A stretch of DNA of 64,000 bases, taken from the NCBI RefSeq assembly GCF_003334315.1, contig NZ_QOWR01000019.1; one strand, given 5' to 3'. The stretch is from Escherichia coli (lineage in GTDB: Bacteria > Pseudomonadota > Gammaproteobacteria > Enterobacterales > Enterobacteriaceae). A program made the translations under genes and the position numbers. This document shows, piece by piece, positions 2,990 through 64,000 of this stretch (its first letter is position 1; the number at the start of each line of letters is the position of its first letter). The notes under the pieces were generated by a model that saw only the letters and a program-made list of their open reading frames with translations, searched no databases and was not told where the DNA came from.

Positions 2990-3046
2990 TGACACTCGTA
3001 TACTGGCAGTCTGATAGCTATTGAGGTCGAAGATAGTACCTTTGAC

Positions 3047-3060
3047 AGAATAATTATGCA
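3047..3060. promoter_or_regulatory. putative ARG box (ArgR operator) in artP promoter region
   Basis: tgaataattatgca resembles TGAAT-N4-ATTCA half-site pattern upstream of artP; art operon is known to be ArgR-repressed. Confidence 0.3.
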
Positions 3061-3206
3061 ATATTTCTGCTTTAAAAGTTAAAAGCAAAGCGCATTATTC
3101 AATAAACATAGCACAAAATAACGGGGGCGGTGGTCGGCGAGCATAAATGTCGGCATTCCTCACGAAATGCCGGACAATTTACGGGGTTTATTGGTTGATC
3201 AAGGCG

Positions 3207-3722
3207 TTAGCGATTCTCGATGGACTGACGGAGCGTACCCGCCGTGGCATGAACGCTACCGCCTAAGTAACGCACATCGTCGATGACCCAACACTGGCCT
3301 TCCTGAATCATTAACACTTCATCCTGCCAACCCTGGTCACCCTGTTTGAGATCCACGCGCAATGGAATGTTACGGGCATCACGATTAGGGATAGTCGATG
3401 CACTGGCAACGTGGGCGCTATCTGGCAAGGTGGTTCGACTGGAGAATGGATCGTTGGTCAGTAGTTCCCGATGGTTATTATCCCGGGAGGCATCGCTAAG
3501 CAGTGTCGCCAGTTTGTCGCTCAGATAAGGGCGCAAGGCGGTGATGTCGTTGCTGCGGTGCAAAATGCGGTAGTCATAAAATTGCTGGGCCACGTTATCC
3601 GGGCCTCCTTCAACGCAAGGACCACTGCGTGTGCCGTTATCTTTATAAGCTGGAGTGACTGTGGTGCAGGCACTGAGGAGCAGTGCGCAGGGGATAAGCA
3701 TTGTCAATTTGCTGTAGCGCAT
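3207..3722 (-). CDS. ybjP: lipoprotein YbjP
   Basis: 171-aa ORF with lipobox LLSAC after signal peptide. Confidence 0.9.
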   Translation of the reverse strand: MRYSKLTMLIPCALLLSACTTVTPAYKDNGTRSGPCVEGGPDNVAQQFYDYRILHRSNDITALRPYLSDKLATLLSDASRDNNHRELLTNDPFSSRTTLPDSAHVASASTIPNRDARNIPLRVDLKQGDQGWQDEVLMIQEGQCWVIDDVRYLGGSVHATAGTLRQSIENR

Positions 3723-4171: not shown

Positions 4172-4998
4172 GAAGAGTCTTCTGGCTGGTCGCTGCCGCT
4201 CTGTTATTGGCAGGGTGTGCAGGCGAAAAAGGCATTGTCGAGAAAGAGGGATATCAGCTTGATACCCGACGCCAGGCGCAGGCGGCGTATCCGCGCATTA
4301 AAGTGCTGGTGATCCACTACACCGCAGATGATTTTGATAGCTCGCTGGCGACACTGACCGATAAGCAGGTCAGCTCGCATTATCTGGTCCCTGCGGTACC
4401 ACCGCGATACAACGGTAAACCGCGCATCTGGCAACTGGTGCCGGAACAAGAACTGGCCTGGCATGCGGGGATTAGCGCCTGGCGCGGGGCAACGCGCCTT
4501 AACGACACCTCTATTGGCATTGAGCTGGAAAACCGTGGCTGGCAAAAATCGGCCGGAGTGAAATATTTTGCCCCGTTTGAACCGGCACAGATTCAGGCGC
4601 TTATTCCACTGGCGAAAGATATTATTGCCCGTTATCACATCAAGCCGGAAAACGTAGTGGCACATGCGGATATCGCACCGCAGCGCAAAGACGATCCGGG
4701 GCCATTATTTCCCTGGCAGCAACTGGCGCAGCAGGGGATTGGTGCCTGGCCGGATGCGCAGCGGGTTAACTTTTACCTTGCCGGGCGCGCGCCGCACACA
4801 CCGGTAGATACCGCGTCATTGCTGGAGCTTTTGGCGCGCTACGGTTATGACGTTAAACCTGATATGACACCGCGCGAGCAGCGGCGCGTGATTATGGCAT
4901 TCCAGATGCATTTCCGCCCGACGTTATATAACGGCGAAGCGGATGCAGAAACTCAGGCGATTGCCGAAGCATTGCTGGAGAAATACGGGCAGGATTAG
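4168..4998 (+). CDS. amiD: N-acetylmuramoyl-L-alanine amidase AmiD (lipoprotein, amidase_2 family)
   Basis: 276-aa ORF, lipobox LLAGCAG, amidase_2-type sequence. Confidence 0.9.
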
Positions 4999-6008
4999 CG
5001 CGGCAGTTTTCCGTGGTCGCGTAGCCAGGCGGCAGTTTTCTCGATACCTTCATCCAGGGTGATGACCGGCTGATAACCTAACTCTTCCTGCGCACGCGTA
5101 ATATCCAGCGTAAAGTCAAAATTCAACTTGGAGACGCCGTAGTGGGTCAGCGGCGGCTCTTTTGCTGACTTGCGGCCTAAACGCTCCATGCTGCGGGCGA
5201 TCATATCCAGCATCGGGTAGGGGACGGAACGAATACGACAGTCAATATTCAACTCGTCGATCAGCTTCTGCACGATGCTGCGCAGTGTGCGATGCTCGCC
5301 GTTGGTGATGTTGTACACACGCCCGGAAGGTAGCTTATCGCAGGCTTCCTGGCTTGCCAGCCACATTGCGTGCACGGCATTTTCATAGTAGGTCATATCG
5401 ACCAGCGCACTGCCGCCATGCGGTAACAGAATACTGCCGTAGTGGTGCATCATATGCGCCAGACGGGGAATAAAGACTTTATCGTGCGGTCCGAACAGAC
5501 TTTGTGGGCGCAGAATAGTAAAGCGCGTTTGTGGATTCGCCTGCGAAAGCATATTGATCACTTCTTCGCTGGCTGCTTTGCTGCGGGCAAACTCGTTGGC
5601 GAAGCGGTGAGGGCGAAAATCTTCTTTAATATCGCGATGGTGGTGATAATCGAAGTACAGGGAGGGGGAAGAGATATGAATAAAGTTACGCACACCCCAG
5701 GCGACAGCCCATTCACCCAGGCGGCGAGTGGCGCGAACGTTAGCCAGATCGAAAGCCTGTTGTGTCCCCCAGGGTGAGGTAAAGCTGGAGCAGTGCCACA
5801 GCGTATCAATGCCCGCGAGCATCACTTTAGCTTGTGATGAAACCAGCTCGGTCAGATCCGCCGGAACAAACTCTGCGCCCATTTTTTCCAGCAATTTGCC
5901 CATTGCCTCGTTGCGACCGGTCGCTCGCACGCTGATGCCTTTCTGGCATAAAAACTCTACCGCGTTTCGACCTAAGCCGCTGGTGGCGCCGGTAACCAGT
6001 ACCTTCAT
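4995..6008 (-). CDS. ybjS: NAD-dependent epimerase/dehydratase family protein YbjS
   Basis: Rossmann motif [13 protein letters not shown] at proposed start; supplied ORF 5'-extended by 21 codons. Confidence 0.85.
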
Positions 6009-6106
6009 ATCAATCCACTGTTGTTGAGAAAATAACGTGCGCATTCTTCCGTGATTTCCCCCATGATGCAATGGGAAACATGAAAGAATAACGCAGGTTT
6101 TGTCGA

Positions 6107-7537
6107 TTAATCTGTGCTTTGTTCTGCCAGTCTGGCGATTTGTTTTGCCATTCCGCGAAAAATAAACAGATGCGCGGGGATCATCAATAACCAGTAAAAC
6201 AGCCCCGGCATACCGTGCGGATGCCAGAAAGCGCGGACATCGATAGTACGATAGTCGCCTTTATCTTCCAGGCTAAAACACAGTCGTCCCAGCCCCGGCG
6301 CTTTCATGCCAAATAACAACGTAAGTTGTTTTTCCGGTTCAACGACAATCACTTTCCAGCTATCCACCGCATCGCCAGTCTGTAAATATTCGCGCTCCGG
6401 GCGGCCTTTCGCCAGCTTATGACCGATCGCGCGGTCCATCAACGCCCGTGTCTGCCACAAAATATTGCCAAAGAAATAACGCTCTTTACCGCCGATTTGG
6501 TTCACCACCTGCCATAAAGCCGCAAGGCTGGCGGACGTTTTAACGGTAAACCCCGCCTGTTTGGCGAAATAACCGTACTCCGGTCGCCAGCGGGCAAAGG
6601 CCTGAGCGTCGTAGCCCCAGTCGCTGGAGTTGACCAGTTTTTCTTCCTCTTTCAACGTGCTACGTACCGCGTCATCGAAAGCGATCAGCCGTTGTGGGAT
6701 GAGTGCACGTAGCGCGGTATCATCCGCCAGCAGATCGTGTTTCAGCCCCTGAATCAACGCCCTGGCGGTGGTGGGCGGTACGGAAGTAATCACATTGAGA
6801 AACCACACCGAAATCCAGCGGGTGGGGAGGGGGATGGGGATCAACCAGCGGCGCTTACCGCTCACCGCCATAAAATGTTCAAACTGTTGCTGATAACTGA
6901 GCACCTCTGGTCCGGCGGCTTCGAAGATGCGGTGTTCGCTGGCCGGATGATCTAACAACGCCACCAGATAGTGCAGCAAGTTTTCCAGCGCGATGGGCGT
7001 GGTGCGTGAACGTACCCAGCGTGGCGGCGTTAACACTGGCAGGTTGTAGACCATATCGCGCATGACTTCGAACGCCGCTGAACCTGCGCCAACGATAATT
7101 CCGGCCCGAAGTTCGGTCACAGGTACATTCGCTTCACGAAGAATGTCCGCCGTAGCCTGACGAGCACGCAGATGATCCGACTGCTCATGTGGCGGGGCCT
7201 GCAACGAACTGAGAAAGATTAATTGCTTAACTGGTACTTCACGTAGCGCATCGCGGACGTTGAGAGCCACCTGGCGCTCCTGAGCGATAAAATCGCCGCC
7301 TTCGCCCATGCTGTGCACCAGAAAATAGACGGTATCGATATCCTGCAACAGGGCCGGAAGGTTATCCGGCCAGCTGAGATCGACTTTATGGCAACTGACG
7401 TTTGCCAGTTGCAGCTTTGCAAGCCTGTCGACATGACGTGCCGCCGCCAGGATCTGATGCCCTTGCTGGCTGAGTGTGCGCACCAGATGCTGACCAATGT
7501 AGCCACTGGCACCGAGAACTAAAATGCGTTGCGGCAC
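6107..7537 (-). CDS. ybjT: NAD(P)-binding protein YbjT
   Basis: Rossmann motif [14 protein letters not shown]; start set at GTG giving 476 aa (inference). Confidence 0.8.
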
Positions 7538-32593: not shown

Positions 32594-35500
32594 TTGAGCC
32601 AGGAATACACTGAAGACAAAGAAGTCACATTGACAAAGTTAAGTAGCGGCCGCCGCCTTCTGGAGGCGTTGCTGATCCTTATTGTCCTGTTTGCCGTCTG
32701 GTTGATGGCTGCCTTACTAAGCTTTAACCCTTCGGACCCCAGCTGGTCGCAAACGGCCTGGCATGAACCTATCCATAATTTAGGTGGGATGCCCGGTGCG
32801 TGGTTGGCAGATACGCTGTTCTTTATTTTTGGCGTGATGGCTTACACCATTCCCGTCATTATTGTCGGCGGTTGTTGGTTTGCCTGGCGTCATCAGTCCA
32901 GCGACGAATACATTGATTATTTTGCCGTTTCGCTACGCATCATTGGCGTTTTGGCGCTCATCCTTACCTCCTGTGGTCTGGCGGCAATCAACGCTGACGA
33001 TATCTGGTATTTTGCCTCCGGTGGCGTCATTGGCAGCTTACTAAGCACTACGCTACAACCACTGCTACACAGTAGCGGGGGAACTATTGCGCTGCTCTGC
33101 GTTTGGGCAGCGGGCCTGACGTTGTTCACCGGTTGGTCATGGGTGACCATTGCTGAAAAACTCGGCGGCTGGATTTTAAACATTCTCACCTTCGCCAGTA
33201 ATCGTACCCGTCGCGATGATACCTGGGTCGATGAAGATGAGTATGAAGACGACGAAGAGTATGAAGATGAAAATCACGGCAAACAGCATGAATCACGCCG
33301 TGCCCGTATTCTTCGCGGCGCGCTAGCGCGTCGTAAACGGTTGGCGGAAAAATTCATTAATCCGATGGGGCGGCAAACAGACGCTGCGTTGTTCTCCGGT
33401 AAGCGGATGGATGATGACGAAGAGATTACCTACACTGCACGCGGTGTGGCTGCCGACCCGGACGACGTCCTATTTTCGGGCAATCGTGCAACGCAGCCAG
33501 AATATGACGAATACGATCCATTATTAAACGGTGCGCCAATTACCGAACCTGTCGCTGTAGCAGCTGCTGCTACCACGGCGACACAAAGCTGGGCTGCGCC
33601 GGTTGAACCTGTGACTCAGACGCCGCCTGTTGCCTCTGTTGATGTTCCACCTGCGCAACCTACAGTAGCCTGGCAGCCTGTACCGGGTCCACAAACGGGA
33701 GAGCCGGTTATTGCTCCTGCACCGGAAGGTTACCCACAGCAGTCACAATATGCGCAGCCTGCATTGCAATATAATGAGCCGCTGCAACAACCAGTACAGC
33801 CGCAGCAGCCGTATTATGCACCTGCAGCTGAACAACCTGCGCAACAGCCGTATTATGCCCCTGCGCCAGAACAACCGGTGGCAGGTAACGCCTGGCAAGC
33901 CGAAGAGCAGCAATCCACTTTTGCTCCACAGTCTACATACCAGACTGAGCAAACTTATCAGCAGCCAGCCGCTCAGGAGCCGTTGTACCAACAGCCGCAA
34001 CCCGTTGAACAGCAGCCTGTTGTGGAGCCTGAACCCGTTGTAGAAGAGACAAAACCCGCGCGTCCGCCGCTTTACTACTTTGAAGAAGTTGAAGAGAAGC
34101 GAGCCCGTGAACGTGAACAACTTGCGGCCTGGTATCAACCGATTCCAGAACCGGTTAAAGAACCAGAACCGATCAAATCTTCGCTGAAAGCACCTTCTGT
34201 TGCAGCAGTACCTCCAGTAGAAGCCGCTGCCGCTGTTTCCCCGCTGGCATCTGGCGTGAAAAAAGCGACACTGGCGACGGGGGCTGCCGCAACCGTTGCC
34301 GCGCCAGTCTTCAGTCTGGCAAATAGCGGTGGACCGCGTCCTCAGGTCAAAGAGGGGATTGGTCCGCAGTTGCCACGACCGAAACGTATCCGCGTGCCAA
34401 CTCGTCGTGAACTGGCGTCTTACGGTATTAAGCTGCCCTCACAGCGTGCGGCGGAAGAAAAAGCCCGTGAAGCCCAGCGCAATCAGTACGATTCTGGCGA
34501 TCAGTACAACGATGATGAAATCGATGCGATGCAGCAGGATGAACTGGCACGTCAGTTCGCCCAGACACAGCAGCAACGCTATGGCGAACAGTATCAACAT
34601 GATGTGCCCGTAAACGCAGAAGATGCAGATGCTGCGGCAGAGGCTGAACTGGCTCGTCAGTTTGCGCAAACTCAACAACAACGTTATTCCGGCGAACAAC
34701 CGGCTGGGGCGAATCCGTTCTCGCTGGATGATTTTGAATTTTCGCCAATGAAAGCGTTGCTGGATGATGGTCCACACGAACCGTTGTTTACGCCAATTGT
34801 TGAACCTGTACAGCAGCCGCAACAACCGGTTGCACCGCAGCAGCAATATCAGCAGCCGCAACAACCAGTTCCGCCGCAGCCGCAGTATCAGCAGCCACAA
34901 CAGCCGGTTGCGCCGCAGCCACAATATCAGCAGCCGCAACAACCGGTTGCGCCACAGCAGCAATATCAGCAGCCGCAACAACCGGTTGCGCCGCAGCAGC
35001 AGTATCAGCAGCCACAACAGCCAGTTGCGCCACAACCGCAGGATACCCTGCTTCATCCGCTGTTGATGCGTAATGGCGACAGCCGTCCGTTGCATAAACC
35101 GACGACGCCGCTGCCTTCTCTGGATTTGCTGACACCGCCGCCGAGCGAAGTGGAGCCGGTAGATACCTTTGCGCTTGAACAAATGGCTCGTCTGGTGGAA
35201 GCGCGTCTGGCTGATTTCCGTATTAAAGCCGATGTCGTCAATTACTCTCCGGGGCCGGTTATCACTCGCTTTGAACTTAACCTGGCTCCTGGCGTAAAAG
35301 CGGCGCGCATTTCTAACTTGTCACGGGACCTTGCCCGTTCACTTTCGACGGTGGCGGTGCGTGTCGTTGAAGTTATTCCTGGCAAACCCTATGTAGGTCT
35401 GGAGTTACCAAATAAAAAACGACAAACCGTTTATCTGCGCGAAGTTTTGGATAACGCCAAATTCCGCGATAATCCGTCGCCATTAACCGTGGTGCTGGGT

Positions 35501-46392: not shown

Positions 46393-46434
46393 CAAGCAGA
46401 GTGTGAACTTACTGTTTCACACTCTGCTTTTTTG
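46393..46434 (+). terminator. strong rho-independent terminator of ycaD
   Basis: perfect 14-bp stem aagcagagtgtgaa..ttcacactctgctt followed by T-run. Confidence 0.85.
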
Positions 46435-46594
46435 TTTCTTCTATCTGACTTGCTTTATTCCAAATTTTATTCGTTTAAAAATAAAATGTGCAGCAGGTTA
46501 TAATTTTGCATTTCGCTATTTCCGCACTTCTTATTTGCCGCGCATAATCCCTCGTTTTACAGATGCCCCTTTAATTTTGGCGAAGGATTTGTCT

Positions 46595-48025
46595 ATGGCT
46601 GGGAATGTTCAGGAAAAACAGTTGCGATGGTACAACATTGCGCTGATGTCTTTTATCACTGTCTGGGGTTTTGGCAACGTTGTTAATAACTATGCCAACC
46701 AGGGGCTGGTGGTTGTTTTTTCATGGGTGTTTATCTTTGCACTCTATTTCACACCTTATGCGCTAATTGTTGGTCAGTTAGGCTCGACCTTCAAAGATGG
46801 GAAGGGCGGGGTCAGTACCTGGATTAAACACACGATGGGACCCGGACTGGCTTATCTCGCCGCGTGGACCTACTGGGTGGTGCATATTCCCTATCTGGCA
46901 CAAAAACCCCAGGCAATTCTGATTGCGCTCGGTTGGGCGATGAAAGGCGACGGTTCGCTAATCAAAGAATATTCAGTCGTAGCGTTACAGGGGTTAACGC
47001 TGGTGCTGTTTATCTTCTTTATGTGGGTTGCTTCACGCGGTATGAAATCGCTGAAAATCGTCGGTTCTGTGGCAGGGATTGCTATGTTTGTTATGTCGCT
47101 CCTGTATGTGGCGATGGCGGTAACCGCGCCTGCAATTACTGAAGTGCATATTGCGACCACAAACATTACCTGGGAAACGTTCATTCCTCATATCGACTTT
47201 ACCTACATTACCACTATTTCAATGCTGGTTTTCGCGGTTGGCGGAGCAGAGAAGATTTCTCCTTACGTTAATCAAACGCGCAACCCAGGAAAAGAATTTC
47301 CAAAAGGGATGTTATGCCTGGCGGTGATGGTTGCGGTTTGTGCCATTCTGGGCTCGCTGGCGATGGGGATGATGTTTGATTCGCGTAATATCCCGGATGA
47401 CTTAATGACCAACGGTCAGTATTACGCCTTTCAGAAGCTGGGCGAGTATTACAACATGGGTAATACTTTAATGGTGATTTACGCCATTGCGAATACCCTG
47501 GGACAAGTAGCGGCGCTGGTATTCTCGATTGATGCCCCGCTTAAAGTGCTATTAGGTGATGCTGACAGCAAATATATTCCAGCCAGTTTATGTCGTACCA
47601 ACGCTTCTGGTACGCCCGTTAATGGCTATTTTCTGACCCTGGTACTGGTGGCGATTCTGATTATGCTGCCGACTCTCGGCATTGGTGATATGAACAATCT
47701 CTATAAATGGCTGTTGAACCTTAATTCGGTAGTGATGCCGCTGCGTTATTTATGGGTATTTGTTGCATTTATTGCAGTCGTTCGCTTGGCGCAGAAATAT
47801 AAACCAGAATATGTCTTTATTCGTAATAAGCCTCTGGCAATGACCGTCGGGATTTGGTGTTTTGCCTTTACCGCCTTTGCCTGTTTGACGGGGATCTTCC
47901 CGAAAATGGAAGCCTTCACTGCAGAGTGGACCTTCCAGTTGGCGCTGAATGTTGCAACGCCGTTTGTGCTGGTAGGATTAGGACTGATATTCCCGCTGCT
48001 GGCGCGTAAAGCGAATAGTAAATAA
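46595..48025 (+). CDS. ycaM: APC-family amino acid transporter YcaM
   Basis: polytopic ORF; start at ATG 46595 (MAGNVQEK) gives 476 aa; supplied ORF is 5'-extended. Confidence 0.88.
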   Translation: MAGNVQEKQLRWYNIALMSFITVWGFGNVVNNYANQGLVVVFSWVFIFALYFTPYALIVGQLGSTFKDGKGGVSTWIKHTMGPGLAYLAAWTYWVVHIPYLAQKPQAILIALGWAMKGDGSLIKEYSVVALQGLTLVLFIFFMWVASRGMKSLKIVGSVAGIAMFVMSLLYVAMAVTAPAITEVHIATTNITWETFIPHIDFTYITTISMLVFAVGGAEKISPYVNQTRNPGKEFPKGMLCLAVMVAVCAILGSLAMGMMFDSRNIPDDLMTNGQYYAFQKLGEYYNMGNTLMVIYAIANTLGQVAALVFSIDAPLKVLLGDADSKYIPASLCRTNASGTPVNGYFLTLVLVAILIMLPTLGIGDMNNLYKWLLNLNSVVMPLRYLWVFVAFIAVVRLAQKYKPEYVFIRNKPLAMTVGIWCFAFTAFACLTGIFPKMEAFTAEWTFQLALNVATPFVLVGLGLIFPLLARKANSK

Positions 48026-48934
48026 TTATTGTGGTCGGTGACGCTGACTCTGGCAGATCTGACCCGTTTTTACATAATCGAGAAATGCGCGCAAGCCGCA
48101 GGACATATACTGGCGGTTTGGATAATAGATCTGGAAGCCTGGACGCTCTGTGCTCCAGTCTCCCAGTACACATTCTAAACGACCAGTATCAAGGTACTCC
48201 TTGATCTGTTCATAGAGCAGATACCCGATACCAGCACCCATCAAAACGGCCTCCAGTTCAGCATCAACATCATCCAGAATGATATTTCCTGCGACAGCAA
48301 TTTCCAGCTCCTTTGCAAATTGCTAGTGGAAAGGTTTGCCGCTGGGATAACGAAAAACAACACATTGATGATTAAGCAGATCATGAGGATGGCGGGGTTT
48401 GCCATATCTTGCAAAGTACTCTGGCGTTGCTGCTACACATAATTTCACTGGCGGGCCGATCGCCACGCTGATCATATCTTTTTCGACGATGCCACTAAGT
48501 CGAACGCCAGCGTCAAAGCCCTGTTGGACGATATCGACAAGAGAGTCGTCAGTTGTGAGCTCGACTTTAATATCAGGATATTCACGTGTGAAACCAACCA
48601 GTAAAGGCATTAAAAATATACGTGCAGCTACCCGGGCGGCATTGATTTTGAGCGTTCCTGTCGGTGTCAGACGAAAATCATTCATCTCATCTAACATGAT
48701 CTGAATTTCGTCGAAAGCTGGGCGCAATCGTTCATAGAGATTAGAACCCGCTTCCGTTAACGATACGCTTCGGGTTGTCCGATTGAATAAGCGAATTTTA
48801 AGACGTTGTTCCAGTGTTTTAATACTATGGCTAATGGCGGACGAGGATAAGCCTAATTCATCGCCCGCTGCACGAAAGCTTTGATTACGAGCCACGGCAA
48901 AGAAAGTGGCAAAGTCAGACATATTCATCCGCAT
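48026..48934 (-). pseudogene. ycaN: LysR-family transcriptional regulator YcaN interrupted by an in-frame amber (TAG) codon at about codon 204
   Basis: 203-aa N-terminal ORF (HTH MSDFATFFAVARNQSFRAAGDELGLSSSAISHSIKTLE) and 72-aa C-terminal ORF are in the same frame, separated by TAG at about 48322-48324 (+ strand cta). Confidence 0.75.
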
Positions 48935-49033
48935 TAGTGAAAATCCTTCATTAACTCATCCTGAATCATCACGTTTACAGGATTATGCCGCCTGCGTAAA
49001 GTGCGCTCCAGAACTTAACGTGGAGGTAAAATT

Positions 49034-49623
49034 ATGCAGTCTGAACGTATTTATTTGGTATGGGCCATCCTCGTCATGATTCATTGACCGCACATATTGC
49101 TGATGCGATCCATCAGCGGGCAATGGAGCGGAAAATACAGGTGACGGAACTCGATTTATATCGGCGTAATTTCAACCCAGTGATGACGCTGGAAGATGAA
49201 CCAGACTGGAAGAATATGGATAAACGTTATTCTCCAGAGGTTCATCAGCTTTATTCAGAGCTGCTTGAACATGACACGTTAGTGGTGGTTTTTCCTCTCT
49301 GGTGGTACAGCTTCCCGGCAATGCTAAAAGGATATATTGACAGAGTATGGAATAATGGGCTGGCTTATGGAGATGGGCAGAAATTACCATTCAATAAAGT
49401 TCGTTGGGTGGCGCTGGTTGGAGGAGACAAAGAATCATTTGTCCAGATGGGCTGGGAAAAAAATATAAGCGATTATTTGATAAATATGTGCAGTTATCTT
49501 GGTATTGAAGATGCCGATGTCACTTTCTTGTGTAATACAGTGGTATTCGATGGGCAAGAACTTCATGCGAGCTATTATCAGTCGTTATTATCTCAGGTAC
49601 GGGATATGGTAGATACACTATAA
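49034..49623 (+). pseudogene. ycaK: NAD(P)H:quinone oxidoreductase-family protein YcaK with apparent -1 frameshift in a C-run near codon 11 (or sequencing error)
   Basis: ATG at 49034 with RBS ggagg encodes MQSERIYLVWA then stops after 17 codons; the conserved frame (HPRHDSLTA...) resumes from ATG 49060 as the 187-aa ORF; a single extra C in gggcc would restore one continuous reading frame. Confidence 0.7.
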
Positions 49624-49661: not shown

Positions 49662-49698
49662 TAAAAAAGCGGCAACTCAATAAAGTTGCCGCTTTACG
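49662..49698. terminator. bidirectional terminator between ycaK and pflA
   Basis: hairpin agcggcaact-caataa-agttgccgct flanked by A-run and T-rich tract. Confidence 0.75.
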
Positions 49699-63530: not shown

Positions 63531-63684
63531 TTTCTCTAATCTGGAACTGGAAGCTGCCTCGCAGAGTTTTGAACAGTTTTCACCCTTTCGTTAAATTCTT
63601 CTGAATATGCCTCGGGGAACGCAAAATTCCCACCAGACAACCGCTCAACAAAGTTGCACACTTTCCATAAACAGGGAGGGGTGC

Positions 63685-63801
63685 ATGAAAATAACGACAG
63701 TCGGTGTATGCATAATTAGCGGAATTTTTCCGTTGCTGATTTTGCCCCAATTGCCTGGGACATTAACCCTTGCGTTTCTGACTCTCTTCGCCTGCGGGTG
63801 A
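63685..63801 (+). pseudogene. ycaI: 5' fragment of ycaI (ComEC-family membrane protein) truncated by IS1
   Basis: ORF MKITTVGVCIISGIFPLLILPQLPGTLTLAFLTLFACG runs into the IS1 terminal inverted repeat and stops. Confidence 0.7.
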
Positions 63802-64000
63802 TGCTGCCAACTTACTGATTTAGTGTATGATGGTGTTTTTGAGGTGCTCCAGTGGCTTCTGTTTCTATCAGCTGTCCCTCCTGTTCAGCTACTGACGGGG
63901 TGGTGCGTAACGGCAAAAGCACCGCCGGACATCAGCGCTATCTCTGCTCTCACTGCCGTAAAACATGGCAACTGCAGTTCACTTACACCGCTTCTCAACC
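63797..64000 (+). mobile_element. insA: IS1 left end (terminal inverted repeat plus 5' part of insA), continues beyond window
   Basis: ggtgatgctgccaacttactgatttagtgtatgatggtgtttttgaggtgctccagtggcttctgtttctatcagctgtccc is the IS1 terminus; downstream frame encodes InsA N-terminus [42 protein letters not shown]. Confidence 0.92.

What the first reader, a model, noticed from the sequence alone, without database searches (positions are those of the whole stretch)
49060..49067. One-base deletion in a C-run frameshifts ycaK near its N-terminus
From the RBS-preceded ATG at 49034 the frame reads MQSERIYLVWA and then terminates. The conserved flavodoxin-like NAD(P)H quinone reductase frame (HPRHDSLTA...) continues in the +1 frame from ATG 49060. 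An extra C in gggcc would give the contiguous WAHP motif typical of this family. This is either a real inactivating or start-shifting mutation, or a homopolymer sequencing error.
Basis: partly seen in the sequence, partly recalled or inferred. Interest (0 to 1): 0.35.

Follow-up and report, generated by a model that had tools for sequence, protein, structure and literature searches.

The report
Inherited frameshift pseudogene of ycaK
A poorly studied E. coli quinone-reductase-like gene (ycaK) is broken here by loss of one C; the break is a real mutation shared by many E. coli strains and already flagged as a pseudogene in public annotation, so it is ordinary.

Summary
The window has TGGGCCATCC (two C, 49065-49066) where the intact E. 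coli ycaK has TGGGCCCATCC. One detail is wrong: the frame from ATG 49034 reads MQSERIYLVWAILVMIH and stops at TGA 49085-49087, not straight after WA. The rest of YcaK (187 codons) runs from ATG 49060 in another frame.

It is not a sequencing error. The exact 81-nt frameshift allele is in 135 of 5,426 complete RefSeq E. coli genomes, from many hosts, several countries and at least two sequence types. Its 187-aa ORF is called on at least 1,000 public contigs. Independent assemblies match the window exactly. NCBI's PGAP pipeline marks ycaK as "frameshifted" in all three carriers whose annotation I read.

A start shift is unlikely. ATG 49060 has no Shine-Dalgarno sequence (-2.1 against -10.6 kcal/mol), and its product would lack strand beta1 (residues 5-10), which the family profile and all solved homologues keep.

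The same deletion arose independently on a haplotype that is only 98% identical. Other lineages (O157:H7, ST131, ATCC 25922) have deleted ycaN-ycaK outright. The window's sub-lineage also carries a nonsense mutation (W204*) in the neighbouring regulator gene ycaN.

Verdict: a known, lineage-inherited pseudogene in a dispensable module. Low interest.

The parts
48974..49002 (+). Sigma-70-like promoter candidate upstream of ycaK, in the ycaN-ycaK divergent intergenic region
   Evidence: Consensus scan gives 9 of 12 matches (TTTACA-17-TAAAGT), which is no more than the number expected by chance. Weak; position only.
49022..49026 (+). Shine-Dalgarno GGAGG of the authentic ycaK start
   Evidence: Lies 7 nt upstream of ATG 49034. 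Duplex with the anti-SD is -10.6 kcal/mol.
49034..49087 (+). Residual 5' reading frame of ycaK: 11 authentic codons (MQSERIYLVWA), 6 out-of-frame codons (ILVMIH) and stop TGA 49085-49087
   Evidence: Translation. The first 11 residues are identical to K-12 and O26 YcaK.
49065..49066 (+). Mutation site: a CC run where the intact allele has CCC (GGGCCC to GGGCC); a 1-nt deletion at Ala11/His12
   Evidence: The 82-nt query with CCC matches 2,771 genomes exactly. The window's 81-nt allele matches 135 exactly. K-12, O26:H11 and Z1323CEC0019 have CCC and an intact 591-bp ycaK.
49060..49623 (+). Out-of-frame remainder of ycaK: a 187-codon ORF from a fortuitous ATG (GT ATG GG of Val9-Trp10), encoding residues 12-196 of YcaK
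   Evidence: ORF list. NF007280 scores 330.6 bits and matches profile positions 11-196. There is no SD: -2.1 kcal/mol. TGA at 49042 closes this frame upstream.
49034..49623 (+). Whole ycaK pseudogene (NAD(P)H oxidoreductase, Flavodoxin_2 fold)
   Evidence: PGAP annotates the same span as 'ycaK, NAD(P)H oxidoreductase, frameshifted' (pseudogene) in strains CP53, PI12 and cM2a. For the repaired protein: Pfam PF02525 E=8.7e-39, NF007280 348.5 bits, and Foldseek top hits are NQO1-type quinone reductases.
49615..49615 (+). Sub-lineage SNP (A; G in most carriers) giving Ala195Thr in full-length numbering
   Evidence: The product P0002 is on 12-22 contigs, against at least 1,000 for P0001.
48026..48934 (-). 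Divergent neighbour ycaN (LysR-type regulator), also inactivated here by W204* (TGG to TAG; stop at 48323-48325, SNP at 48324)
   Evidence: The ORF is split into 203 aa and 72 aa. Codon comparison with PI12. The SNP is absent from all 3,314 RefSeq complete genomes that have ycaN. It is present in related assemblies L013, L014, L015, L017 and L020.
49666..49695 (.). Terminator-like hairpin between the convergent genes ycaK and pflA
   Evidence: The scan found it on the minus strand, i.e. as the pflA terminator: 13-pair stem followed by a T-run. That it also ends ycaK transcription is my inference from the palindromic stem, not a scan result.

Best explanation
ycaK in this genome is a genuine, vertically inherited pseudogene. 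One C was lost from the GGGCCC run at codons 10-12, most plausibly by replication slippage. Ribosomes that start at the authentic ATG 49034, which has a strong Shine-Dalgarno sequence, leave the YcaK frame after Ala11. They add six unrelated residues and terminate at TGA 49085-49087, giving a 17-residue peptide.

The remaining 187 codons form an ORF only because an out-of-frame ATG (GT-ATG-GG) falls into frame after the deletion. That ATG has no ribosome-binding site and lies inside the translated short ORF. Its product would lack beta1, which in this fold is the central strand of the flavodoxin-like sheet. So little or no functional YcaK is made.

The allele is young: there is no further change in ycaK among most carriers. 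It is spread over many phylogroup-A-like strains of different sequence types, hosts and continents. Its persistence fits a dispensable module, because other E. coli lineages have deleted ycaN-ycaK or ycaM-ycaN-ycaK, and the window's own sub-lineage then acquired ycaK A195T and a nonsense mutation in ycaN.

Shown: the deletion, its reading-frame consequences, its population distribution, and the conservation of the lost N-terminus. Inferred: the slippage mechanism, the lack of translation from ATG 49060, and the misfolding of any truncated product.
For: Sequence and frames:
- Searches give the sequence, the two frames and the stop positions.
- The intact allele (CCC) matches 2,771 genomes exactly; the frameshift allele (CC) matches 135 exactly.
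- PGAP marks the gene 'frameshifted' in CP53, PI12 and cM2a.

Spread of the allele:
- The 187-aa ORF product P0001 is on at least 1,000 contigs, indexed in 4,620 blocks of the collection.
- The intact protein on the same haplotype, P0016, is also on at least 1,000 contigs.
- The window differs from strain PI12 by 5 SNPs and no gaps over 24 kb.
- The window is 100% identical to independent assemblies L013, L017 and L021.
- Carriers include ST542 (PMC6662510) and ST793 (PMC6206212).

Conservation of the lost N-terminus:
- NF007280 matches from profile position 1 for the repaired protein and from position 11 for the ORF.
- Pfam Flavodoxin_2 matches from residue 5.
- PDB homologues align at 'RIYLVWAHP'.
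- The AF2 model places a strand at residues 5-10 (pLDDT 66), and its fold matches NQO1, 4r81, 4gi5 and 3lcm.

Translation signals:
- Anti-SD pairing is -10.6 kcal/mol for ATG 49034 and -2.1 kcal/mol for ATG 49060.
- The short ORF contains no X XXY YYZ slippery heptamer.

Dispensability:
- 2,098 of 5,426 genomes have no ycaK.
- O157:H7 keeps only a 111-bp ycaN remnant.
- ST131 and ATCC 25922 lack ycaM-ycaN-ycaK.
- The same deletion recurs on a haplotype 98.0% identical, with 130 SNPs in 6.5 kb.
- The ycaN W204* mutation lies in the window's sub-lineage.
Against: - No reads of this particular genome could be inspected.
- No expression or proteomic data exist for carriers, so low-level re-initiation at ATG 49060 cannot be excluded. 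The short ORF stops only 25 nt downstream of that ATG.
- The 187-codon ORF is undamaged in nearly all carriers. That is expected for a young pseudogene, but it is equally compatible with retained function.
- The truncated product keeps the HPxxxS flavin-phosphate loop.
- The structural argument rests on a moderate-confidence single-sequence model (pLDDT 66) plus general knowledge of the fold.
Confidence: 0.88

Rival explanations
1. Start shift: the deletion creates a functional, N-terminally shortened YcaK. It would be translated from ATG 49060, for example by re-initiation or translational coupling with the 17-codon upstream ORF.
For: - The 187-codon ORF is intact and scores 330.6 bits against the YcaK equivalog, well above the 162-bit cut-off.
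- The ORF is intact in all 23 carrier sequences read (the window and 22 loci), and its product P0001 is called on at least 1,000 contigs.
- The short ORF terminates 25 nt downstream of ATG 49060, so terminating ribosomes are nearby.
- Several gene callers and GenBank submitters annotate the 187-aa product as 'NAD(P)H oxidoreductase'.
Against: - There is no Shine-Dalgarno sequence before ATG 49060: -2.1 kcal/mol against -10.6 for the authentic start.
- The product lacks residues 1-9 and changes residues 10-11, which removes strand beta1 at residues 5-10.
- Every homologue and profile keeps that strand.
- PGAP treats the gene as a pseudogene.
- Carriers show too little ycaK variation to detect purifying selection.
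- The only later change seen on the window's haplotype is non-synonymous (A195T), and the partner regulator ycaN then acquired a stop codon.
Confidence: 0.06
2. Sequencing or assembly artefact: the genome really has CCC, and a homopolymer miscall removed one C.
For: The difference is a 1-nt length change in a homopolymer, which is the classic error type for some platforms. This genome's reads cannot be inspected here.
Against: - The run is only 2-3 nt long.
- The identical allele is in 135 complete genomes from many laboratories and on at least 1,000 contigs.
- The window's exact sub-haplotype (frameshift plus 49615A plus the ycaN stop) is reproduced in independent NCBI and Logan assemblies from different runs.
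Confidence: 0.03
3. Recoding or phase variation: full-length YcaK is still produced by programmed -1 ribosomal frameshifting or transcriptional slippage, or the C-run is a reversible contingency switch.
For: - The same deletion arose at least twice on different haplotypes.
- Both run lengths coexist in the species.
Against: - No X XXY YYZ heptamer lies between the last upstream stop in the target frame (TGA 49042) and the short ORF's stop.
- Runs of 2-3 C and 3 G are far below the lengths known to support transcriptional slippage or phase variation (about 7 or more; established knowledge).
- The distribution is clonal and haplotype-linked, not mixed within lineages. The 30 best-scoring matches to the window's 24-kb stretch all round to 100.0% identity, and every one of those I read carries the allele.
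Confidence: 0.02

Closest known systems
E. coli K-12 YcaK (b0901), NCBIfam NF007280 'NAD(P)H oxidoreductase' equivalog; Pfam Flavodoxin_2 (PF02525)
   Same: - The locus is the same: ycaM / ycaN / ycaK / pflA.
- The repaired translation is 98% identical to K-12 YcaK.
- It matches the whole equivalog profile at 348.5 bits and Pfam PF02525.
   Different: - One C is missing at codons 11/12, so no single ORF encodes the whole protein.
- The window's haplotype also differs from K-12 at P44L, H116Q, K150I, E175Q and A195T.
The 'frameshifted' ycaK pseudogene annotated by PGAP in RefSeq genomes such as CP53 (NZ_CP033096), PI12 (NZ_CP074005) and cM2a (NZ_CM176588)
   Same: The deletion and the coordinates within the gene are identical. 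The surrounding 24 kb differs by only 5 SNPs from PI12.
   Different: The window additionally has 49615 G to A and the ycaN W204* stop. Neither is present in any complete RefSeq genome, but both are present in draft and Logan assemblies.
NQO1/NQO2-type quinone reductases and bacterial relatives (PDB 1d4a, 1qr2, 4r81, 3lcm, 4gi5); paralogues KefF and KefG
   Same: They share the flavodoxin-like fold, an N-terminal beta1 followed by an (A/T)HP...S loop, and the 'FP(l/i)WW' motif.
   Different: Sequence identity is only about 20-25%. The substrates of YcaK are unknown. It has appeared in the literature I read only as a member of oxidoreductase/nitroreductase candidate libraries (PMC3596305; PMC3695803) and as part of the ycaN-ycaK-ycaM cluster (PMC9068703).
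Deletion alleles of the ycaN-ycaK module in other E. coli lineages (O157:H7; ST131 and ATCC 25922)
   Same: The outcome is the same: loss of YcaK, and of YcaN.
   Different: Those are deletions of 1.5 kb and about 3.2 kb respectively. Here the gene is lost through point lesions: a 1-nt deletion in ycaK and a nonsense SNP in ycaN.

Membership tests
YcaK NAD(P)H oxidoreductase (NCBIfam NF007280 equivalog) | Whole-protein score above the curated cut-off of 162 bits | tested here: met
   348.5 bits for the repaired translation and 330.6 bits for the 187-aa ORF.
YcaK NAD(P)H oxidoreductase (NCBIfam NF007280 equivalog) | A single ORF covering the profile from its N-terminus (positions 1-196 of 199) | tested here: not met
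   The 187-aa ORF starts at profile position 11. Positions 1-10 are encoded in another frame at 49034-49066. The locus is therefore a pseudogene of the family, not an intact member.
YcaK NAD(P)H oxidoreductase (NCBIfam NF007280 equivalog) | Conserved chromosomal context: divergent from ycaN, convergent with pflA | tested here: met
   The gene order is identical to K-12, O26:H11 and others.
Flavodoxin_2 fold (Pfam PF02525) / NQO1-like quinone reductases | Profile match and fold match including beta1 followed by the flavin-phosphate loop | tested here: met
PF02525 E=8.7e-39 over residues 5-179. The model has a strand at residues 5-10. Foldseek gives TM 0.6-0.7 to 1dxq, 4r81 and 4gi5.
Flavodoxin_2 fold (Pfam PF02525) / NQO1-like quinone reductases | Flavin binding and NAD(P)H:quinone reductase activity | not testable with these tools
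   This needs biochemistry. No activity data for E. coli YcaK appeared in the passages I read of the papers searched.
Frameshift pseudogene (real mutation, not an artefact) | An indel relative to intact orthologues that causes a premature stop | tested here: met
   CCC to CC, with a stop after 17 codons.
Frameshift pseudogene (real mutation, not an artefact) | Reproduced in independent genomes and read sets | tested here: met
   135 complete genomes, at least 1,000 contigs, and assemblies identical to the window.
Frameshift pseudogene (real mutation, not an artefact) | Absence of a functional protein product | not testable with these tools
   Inferred from the missing SD and the missing beta1. 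No proteomic data were available.
Programmed ribosomal frameshift / transcriptional slippage site | A slippery heptamer (X XXY YYZ) or a long homopolymer at the frame junction | tested here: not met
   No heptamer lies in 49034-49087. The runs are G3 and C2.
Phase-variable contingency locus | A long simple-sequence tract whose length varies within lineages | tested here: not met
   The tract is 2-3 nt. The allele is linked to a haplotype: the 30 best matches to the window's 24-kb stretch all round to 100.0% identity, and those I read carry the allele. One independent recurrence was seen.

The most novel reading that the evidence does not exclude
Loss of the YcaN-YcaK module may be repeatedly selected in E. 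coli rather than merely tolerated. The events seen are the same GGGCCC-to-GGGCC deletion arising twice, a follow-up ycaN nonsense mutation, and two different deletions in O157:H7-like and B2 lineages. One speculative reason is that the reductase could activate a quinone or nitro-aromatic compound met in livestock or in the gut; many carriers are multidrug-resistant isolates from pigs and poultry. This is speculation: no tool result links YcaK to any such phenotype.
Probability: 0.06. Interest if true: 0.4.

Novelty: already known. Interest (0 to 1): 0.08.

Why it matters
It matters little beyond correct annotation. The window should carry ycaK, and ycaN, as pseudogenes rather than a 187-aa "NAD(P)H oxidoreductase", which is how several GenBank and automatic gene calls label it.

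The allele, together with 49615A and ycaN W204*, is a convenient nested lineage marker.

The case also documents that the ycaN-ycaK module is dispensable and has been lost several times in E. coli. That is mildly useful for anyone trying to assign a function to these y-genes.

Tried and rejected
- Sequencing error. Rejected because the allele is reproduced in 135 complete genomes, on at least 1,000 contigs and in assemblies identical to the window.
- A natural downstream start in orthologues. Rejected because the NCBIfam and Pfam profiles and the PDB homologues all include the N-terminal strand.
- Programmed frameshifting or slippage. Rejected because there is no slippery heptamer and the runs are too short.
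- O26:H11 str. 11368 and Z1323CEC0019 as further independent frameshifts. I suspected this because their matches span 5,101 nt rather than 5,102. Their ycaK is intact (591 bp); the missing base lies upstream of ycaM, which starts one base earlier than in K-12.
- The second-haplotype frameshift (the L022 type) in complete RefSeq genomes. There were no exact matches, so it is rare.
- dN/dS among carriers, to test whether the 187-aa ORF is under selection. This was uninformative: there is no variation in ycaK among L001-L012, and one non-synonymous SNP in the window's sub-lineage.
- A G:C-to-A:T-only SNP pattern against PI12, which would hint at mutagenesis. It holds in 40-64 kb (5 of 5) but the changes are mixed in 1-40 kb. 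I did not pursue it.
- The large protein-database searches (search for homologous proteins, the search of protein representatives) were deliberately not run. The cheaper profile and PDB searches already settled the question of the N-terminus.
- I did not type the carriers by MLST myself. I took two sequence types from papers.

Full report
**What is in the sequence**

The region 46.4-50.5 kb of the window is the E. coli locus ycaM(+) / ycaN(-) / ycaK(+) / pflA(-). A GGAGG Shine-Dalgarno sequence at 49022-49026 precedes ATG 49034. That frame reads MQSERIYLVWAILVMIH and ends at TGA 49085-49087.

A 187-codon ORF runs from ATG 49060 to 49623 in the -1/+2 frame. In that frame a TGA at 49042 closes the ORF upstream, so 49060 is its first possible start. 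The window reads TGGGCCATCC at 49061-49070.

**Comparison with other E. coli**

I searched 5,426 complete RefSeq E. coli genomes.
- An 82-nt query with one extra C (TGGGCCCATCC) matches 2,771 genomes exactly.
- The window's own 81-nt stretch matches 135 genomes exactly.
- 3,328 genomes have ycaK at all.
- K-12, O26:H11 str. 11368 and Z1323CEC0019 carry CCC and an intact 591-bp ycaK.
- With the C restored, the window's translation is 98% identical to K-12 YcaK and reads ...YLVWAHPRHDS....

The observation of a one-base deletion in the C-run is therefore correct.

**A real mutation, not an artefact**

- The window differs from strain PI12 (pig, Cuba) by 5 SNPs and no gaps over 24 kb, and strain cM2a (human, Malawi) matches with the same bit score. 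Both carry the same deletion. NCBI's PGAP pipeline annotates ycaK as a "frameshifted" pseudogene in both, and also in CP53.
- The product of the 187-codon ORF (P0001, ending ...MVDAL) is recorded on at least 1,000 contigs and indexed in 4,620 blocks of the large public collection.
- The window's exact version (P0002, ending ...MVDTL because of a G-to-A change at 49615) is on 12-22 contigs.
- Independent assemblies are 100% identical to the window over their whole length: GCA_012531215.1 over 6,564 bp, and Logan assemblies of SRR16555215 and ERR9805393.
- Carriers come from pigs, poultry, ducks, frogs, dogs, humans and wastewater in several countries. They include at least ST542 (GSH8M-2, PMC6662510) and ST793 (14EC001, PMC6206212).
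- A homopolymer miscall in a 2-3-nt run would not reproduce like this.

**What the gene is**

- The repaired protein matches the NCBIfam equivalog NF007280 "NAD(P)H oxidoreductase" over profile positions 1-196 of 199, at 348.5 bits against a 162-bit cut-off.
- It matches Pfam Flavodoxin_2 over residues 5-179, E=8.7e-39.
- Sequence search of the PDB finds bacterial quinone reductases (3lcm, 4r81, 4gi5) and mammalian NQO1/NQO2. All align from query residues 2-5, i.e. through "RIYLVWAHP".
- A single-sequence AlphaFold model has moderate confidence (pLDDT 66, pTM 0.67). It shows the alternating strand-helix pattern of the flavodoxin-like fold, with beta1 at residues 5-10. Its best Foldseek matches are NQO1, 4r81, 4gi5 and 3lcm, at TM 0.6-0.7.
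- The biochemical role of E. coli YcaK is not established. In the papers I read it appears only as a member of candidate oxidoreductase/nitroreductase libraries (PMC3596305; PMC3695803) and as part of the conserved ycaN-ycaK-ycaM cluster (PMC9068703).

**Consequence of the deletion**

Ribosomes that start at the authentic ATG 49034 make a 17-residue peptide. Pairing with the anti-SD there is -10.6 kcal/mol.

The ATG at 49060 is the out-of-frame GT-ATG-GG of Val9-Trp10, which the deletion brings into frame. Several points argue against its use:
- Its upstream 20 nt pair with the anti-SD at only -2.1 kcal/mol.
- It lies inside the translated short ORF.
- Its product starts at profile position 11, so it lacks beta1 entirely.
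- From established knowledge of flavodoxin-like and NQO1 structures, beta1 is the central strand of the parallel sheet and leads into the flavin-phosphate loop. Removing it should prevent folding.

No X XXY YYZ slippery heptamer lies in the short ORF. Runs of G3/C2 are far too short for transcriptional slippage or phase variation.

I therefore rate the outcomes as follows:
- Inactivation: 0.88.
- A functional start-shifted protein: about 0.06.
- An artefact: about 0.03.
- Recoding or phase variation: about 0.02.

The inactivation itself is inferred. It has not been shown by expression data.

**Population context**

The module is dispensable. E. coli shows three states of the locus:
- Complete, in 3,325 of 5,426 genomes.
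- ycaN-ycaK deleted, with a 111-bp ycaN remnant. Examples are O157:H7 and APEC37 (locus L026).
- ycaM-ycaN-ycaK all deleted. Examples are ST131 and ATCC 25922.

The very same GGGCCC-to-GGGCC deletion also occurs on a haplotype that is only 98.0% identical (130 SNPs in 6.5 kb) and has a TTG-to-TTA difference 8 nt upstream (P0011, loci L022 and L023). So it arose at least twice. That second allele is absent from complete RefSeq genomes.

Among carriers on the window's haplotype, ycaK shows no further variation except 49615 G-to-A (A195T) in the window's sub-lineage. The lesion is therefore young, and dN/dS is uninformative.

**Further decay in the window's sub-lineage**

ycaN, the divergently transcribed LysR-type regulator gene, carries W204* (TGG to TAG; plus-strand 48324 is T instead of C).
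- This SNP is in none of the 3,314 complete RefSeq genomes that have ycaN.
- It is present in the related assemblies L013, L014, L015, L017 and L020.
- L016 and L018 have 49615A but an intact ycaN.
- The order of events is therefore: frameshift, then A195T, then the ycaN stop.

**Verdict**

The feature is an ordinary pseudogene that is already annotated in public genomes, in a dispensable and poorly characterised module. Novelty: already known. Interest: low (0.08).

The only mildly novel reading left open is that repeated loss of ycaN-ycaK is selected rather than neutral (probability about 0.06). Nothing in the data links it to a phenotype.

Noticed in passing
window 48026-48934 (-), SNP at 48324: ycaN, the LysR-type regulator gene divergent from ycaK, has a nonsense mutation W204* (TGG to TAG). 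It splits the gene into ORFs of 203 aa and 72 aa. The SNP is absent from all 3,314 complete RefSeq genomes with ycaN but present in several draft and Logan assemblies of the same sub-lineage.
   Followed up: yes
window 49615: A G-to-A SNP (Ala195Thr in full-length YcaK numbering) marks a sub-lineage of the frameshift carriers. It is found on 12-22 contigs, and no complete RefSeq genome has it.
   Followed up: yes
loci L022 and L023 (gene at 3001-3564): The same GGGCCC-to-GGGCC deletion sits on a ycaK haplotype that is 98.0% identical, so it recurred independently. It is rare: 6 contigs, and none among complete RefSeq genomes.
   Followed up: yes
L026 (O157:H7 Rafaela_II) and hits H183-H189: Other E. 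coli lineages lack the module through deletion. O157:H7-like genomes keep only a 111-bp ycaN remnant between ycaM and pflA. ST131 and ATCC 25922 lack ycaM-ycaN-ycaK altogether.
   Followed up: partly
L007, L008, L009, L011 (about 4475-6564): In some frameshift-carrying genomes a P2-like prophage (integrase, Cox, RepB) follows directly upstream of pflA, where pflB lies in the window. pflA is then called with a longer N-terminus, 265 aa against 246 aa. The window does not have this.
   Followed up: no
window about 63608-64000: By near-identity to the annotated PI12 record, a truncated 'hypothetical protein' fragment after ihfB is followed by an IS1A element that runs off the window end.
   Followed up: no
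window 34867-34954: A cluster of differences from PI12, with a locally repetitive alignment, lies inside ftsK. This looks like variation in a repetitive part of ftsK.
   Followed up: no
window 40000-64000 against PI12: All five SNPs separating the window from PI12 are G:C-to-A:T in the window (41310, 48324, 49615, 56743, 59001). Differences in 1-40 kb are mixed, so this is probably chance or a matter of polarity.
   Followed up: partly
window 46403-48025 (+): The mechanical ORF for ycaM is 540 aa from a GTG. Annotated ycaM in related genomes is 476 aa (window-equivalent start about 46595), so the extension is probably spurious.
   Followed up: no
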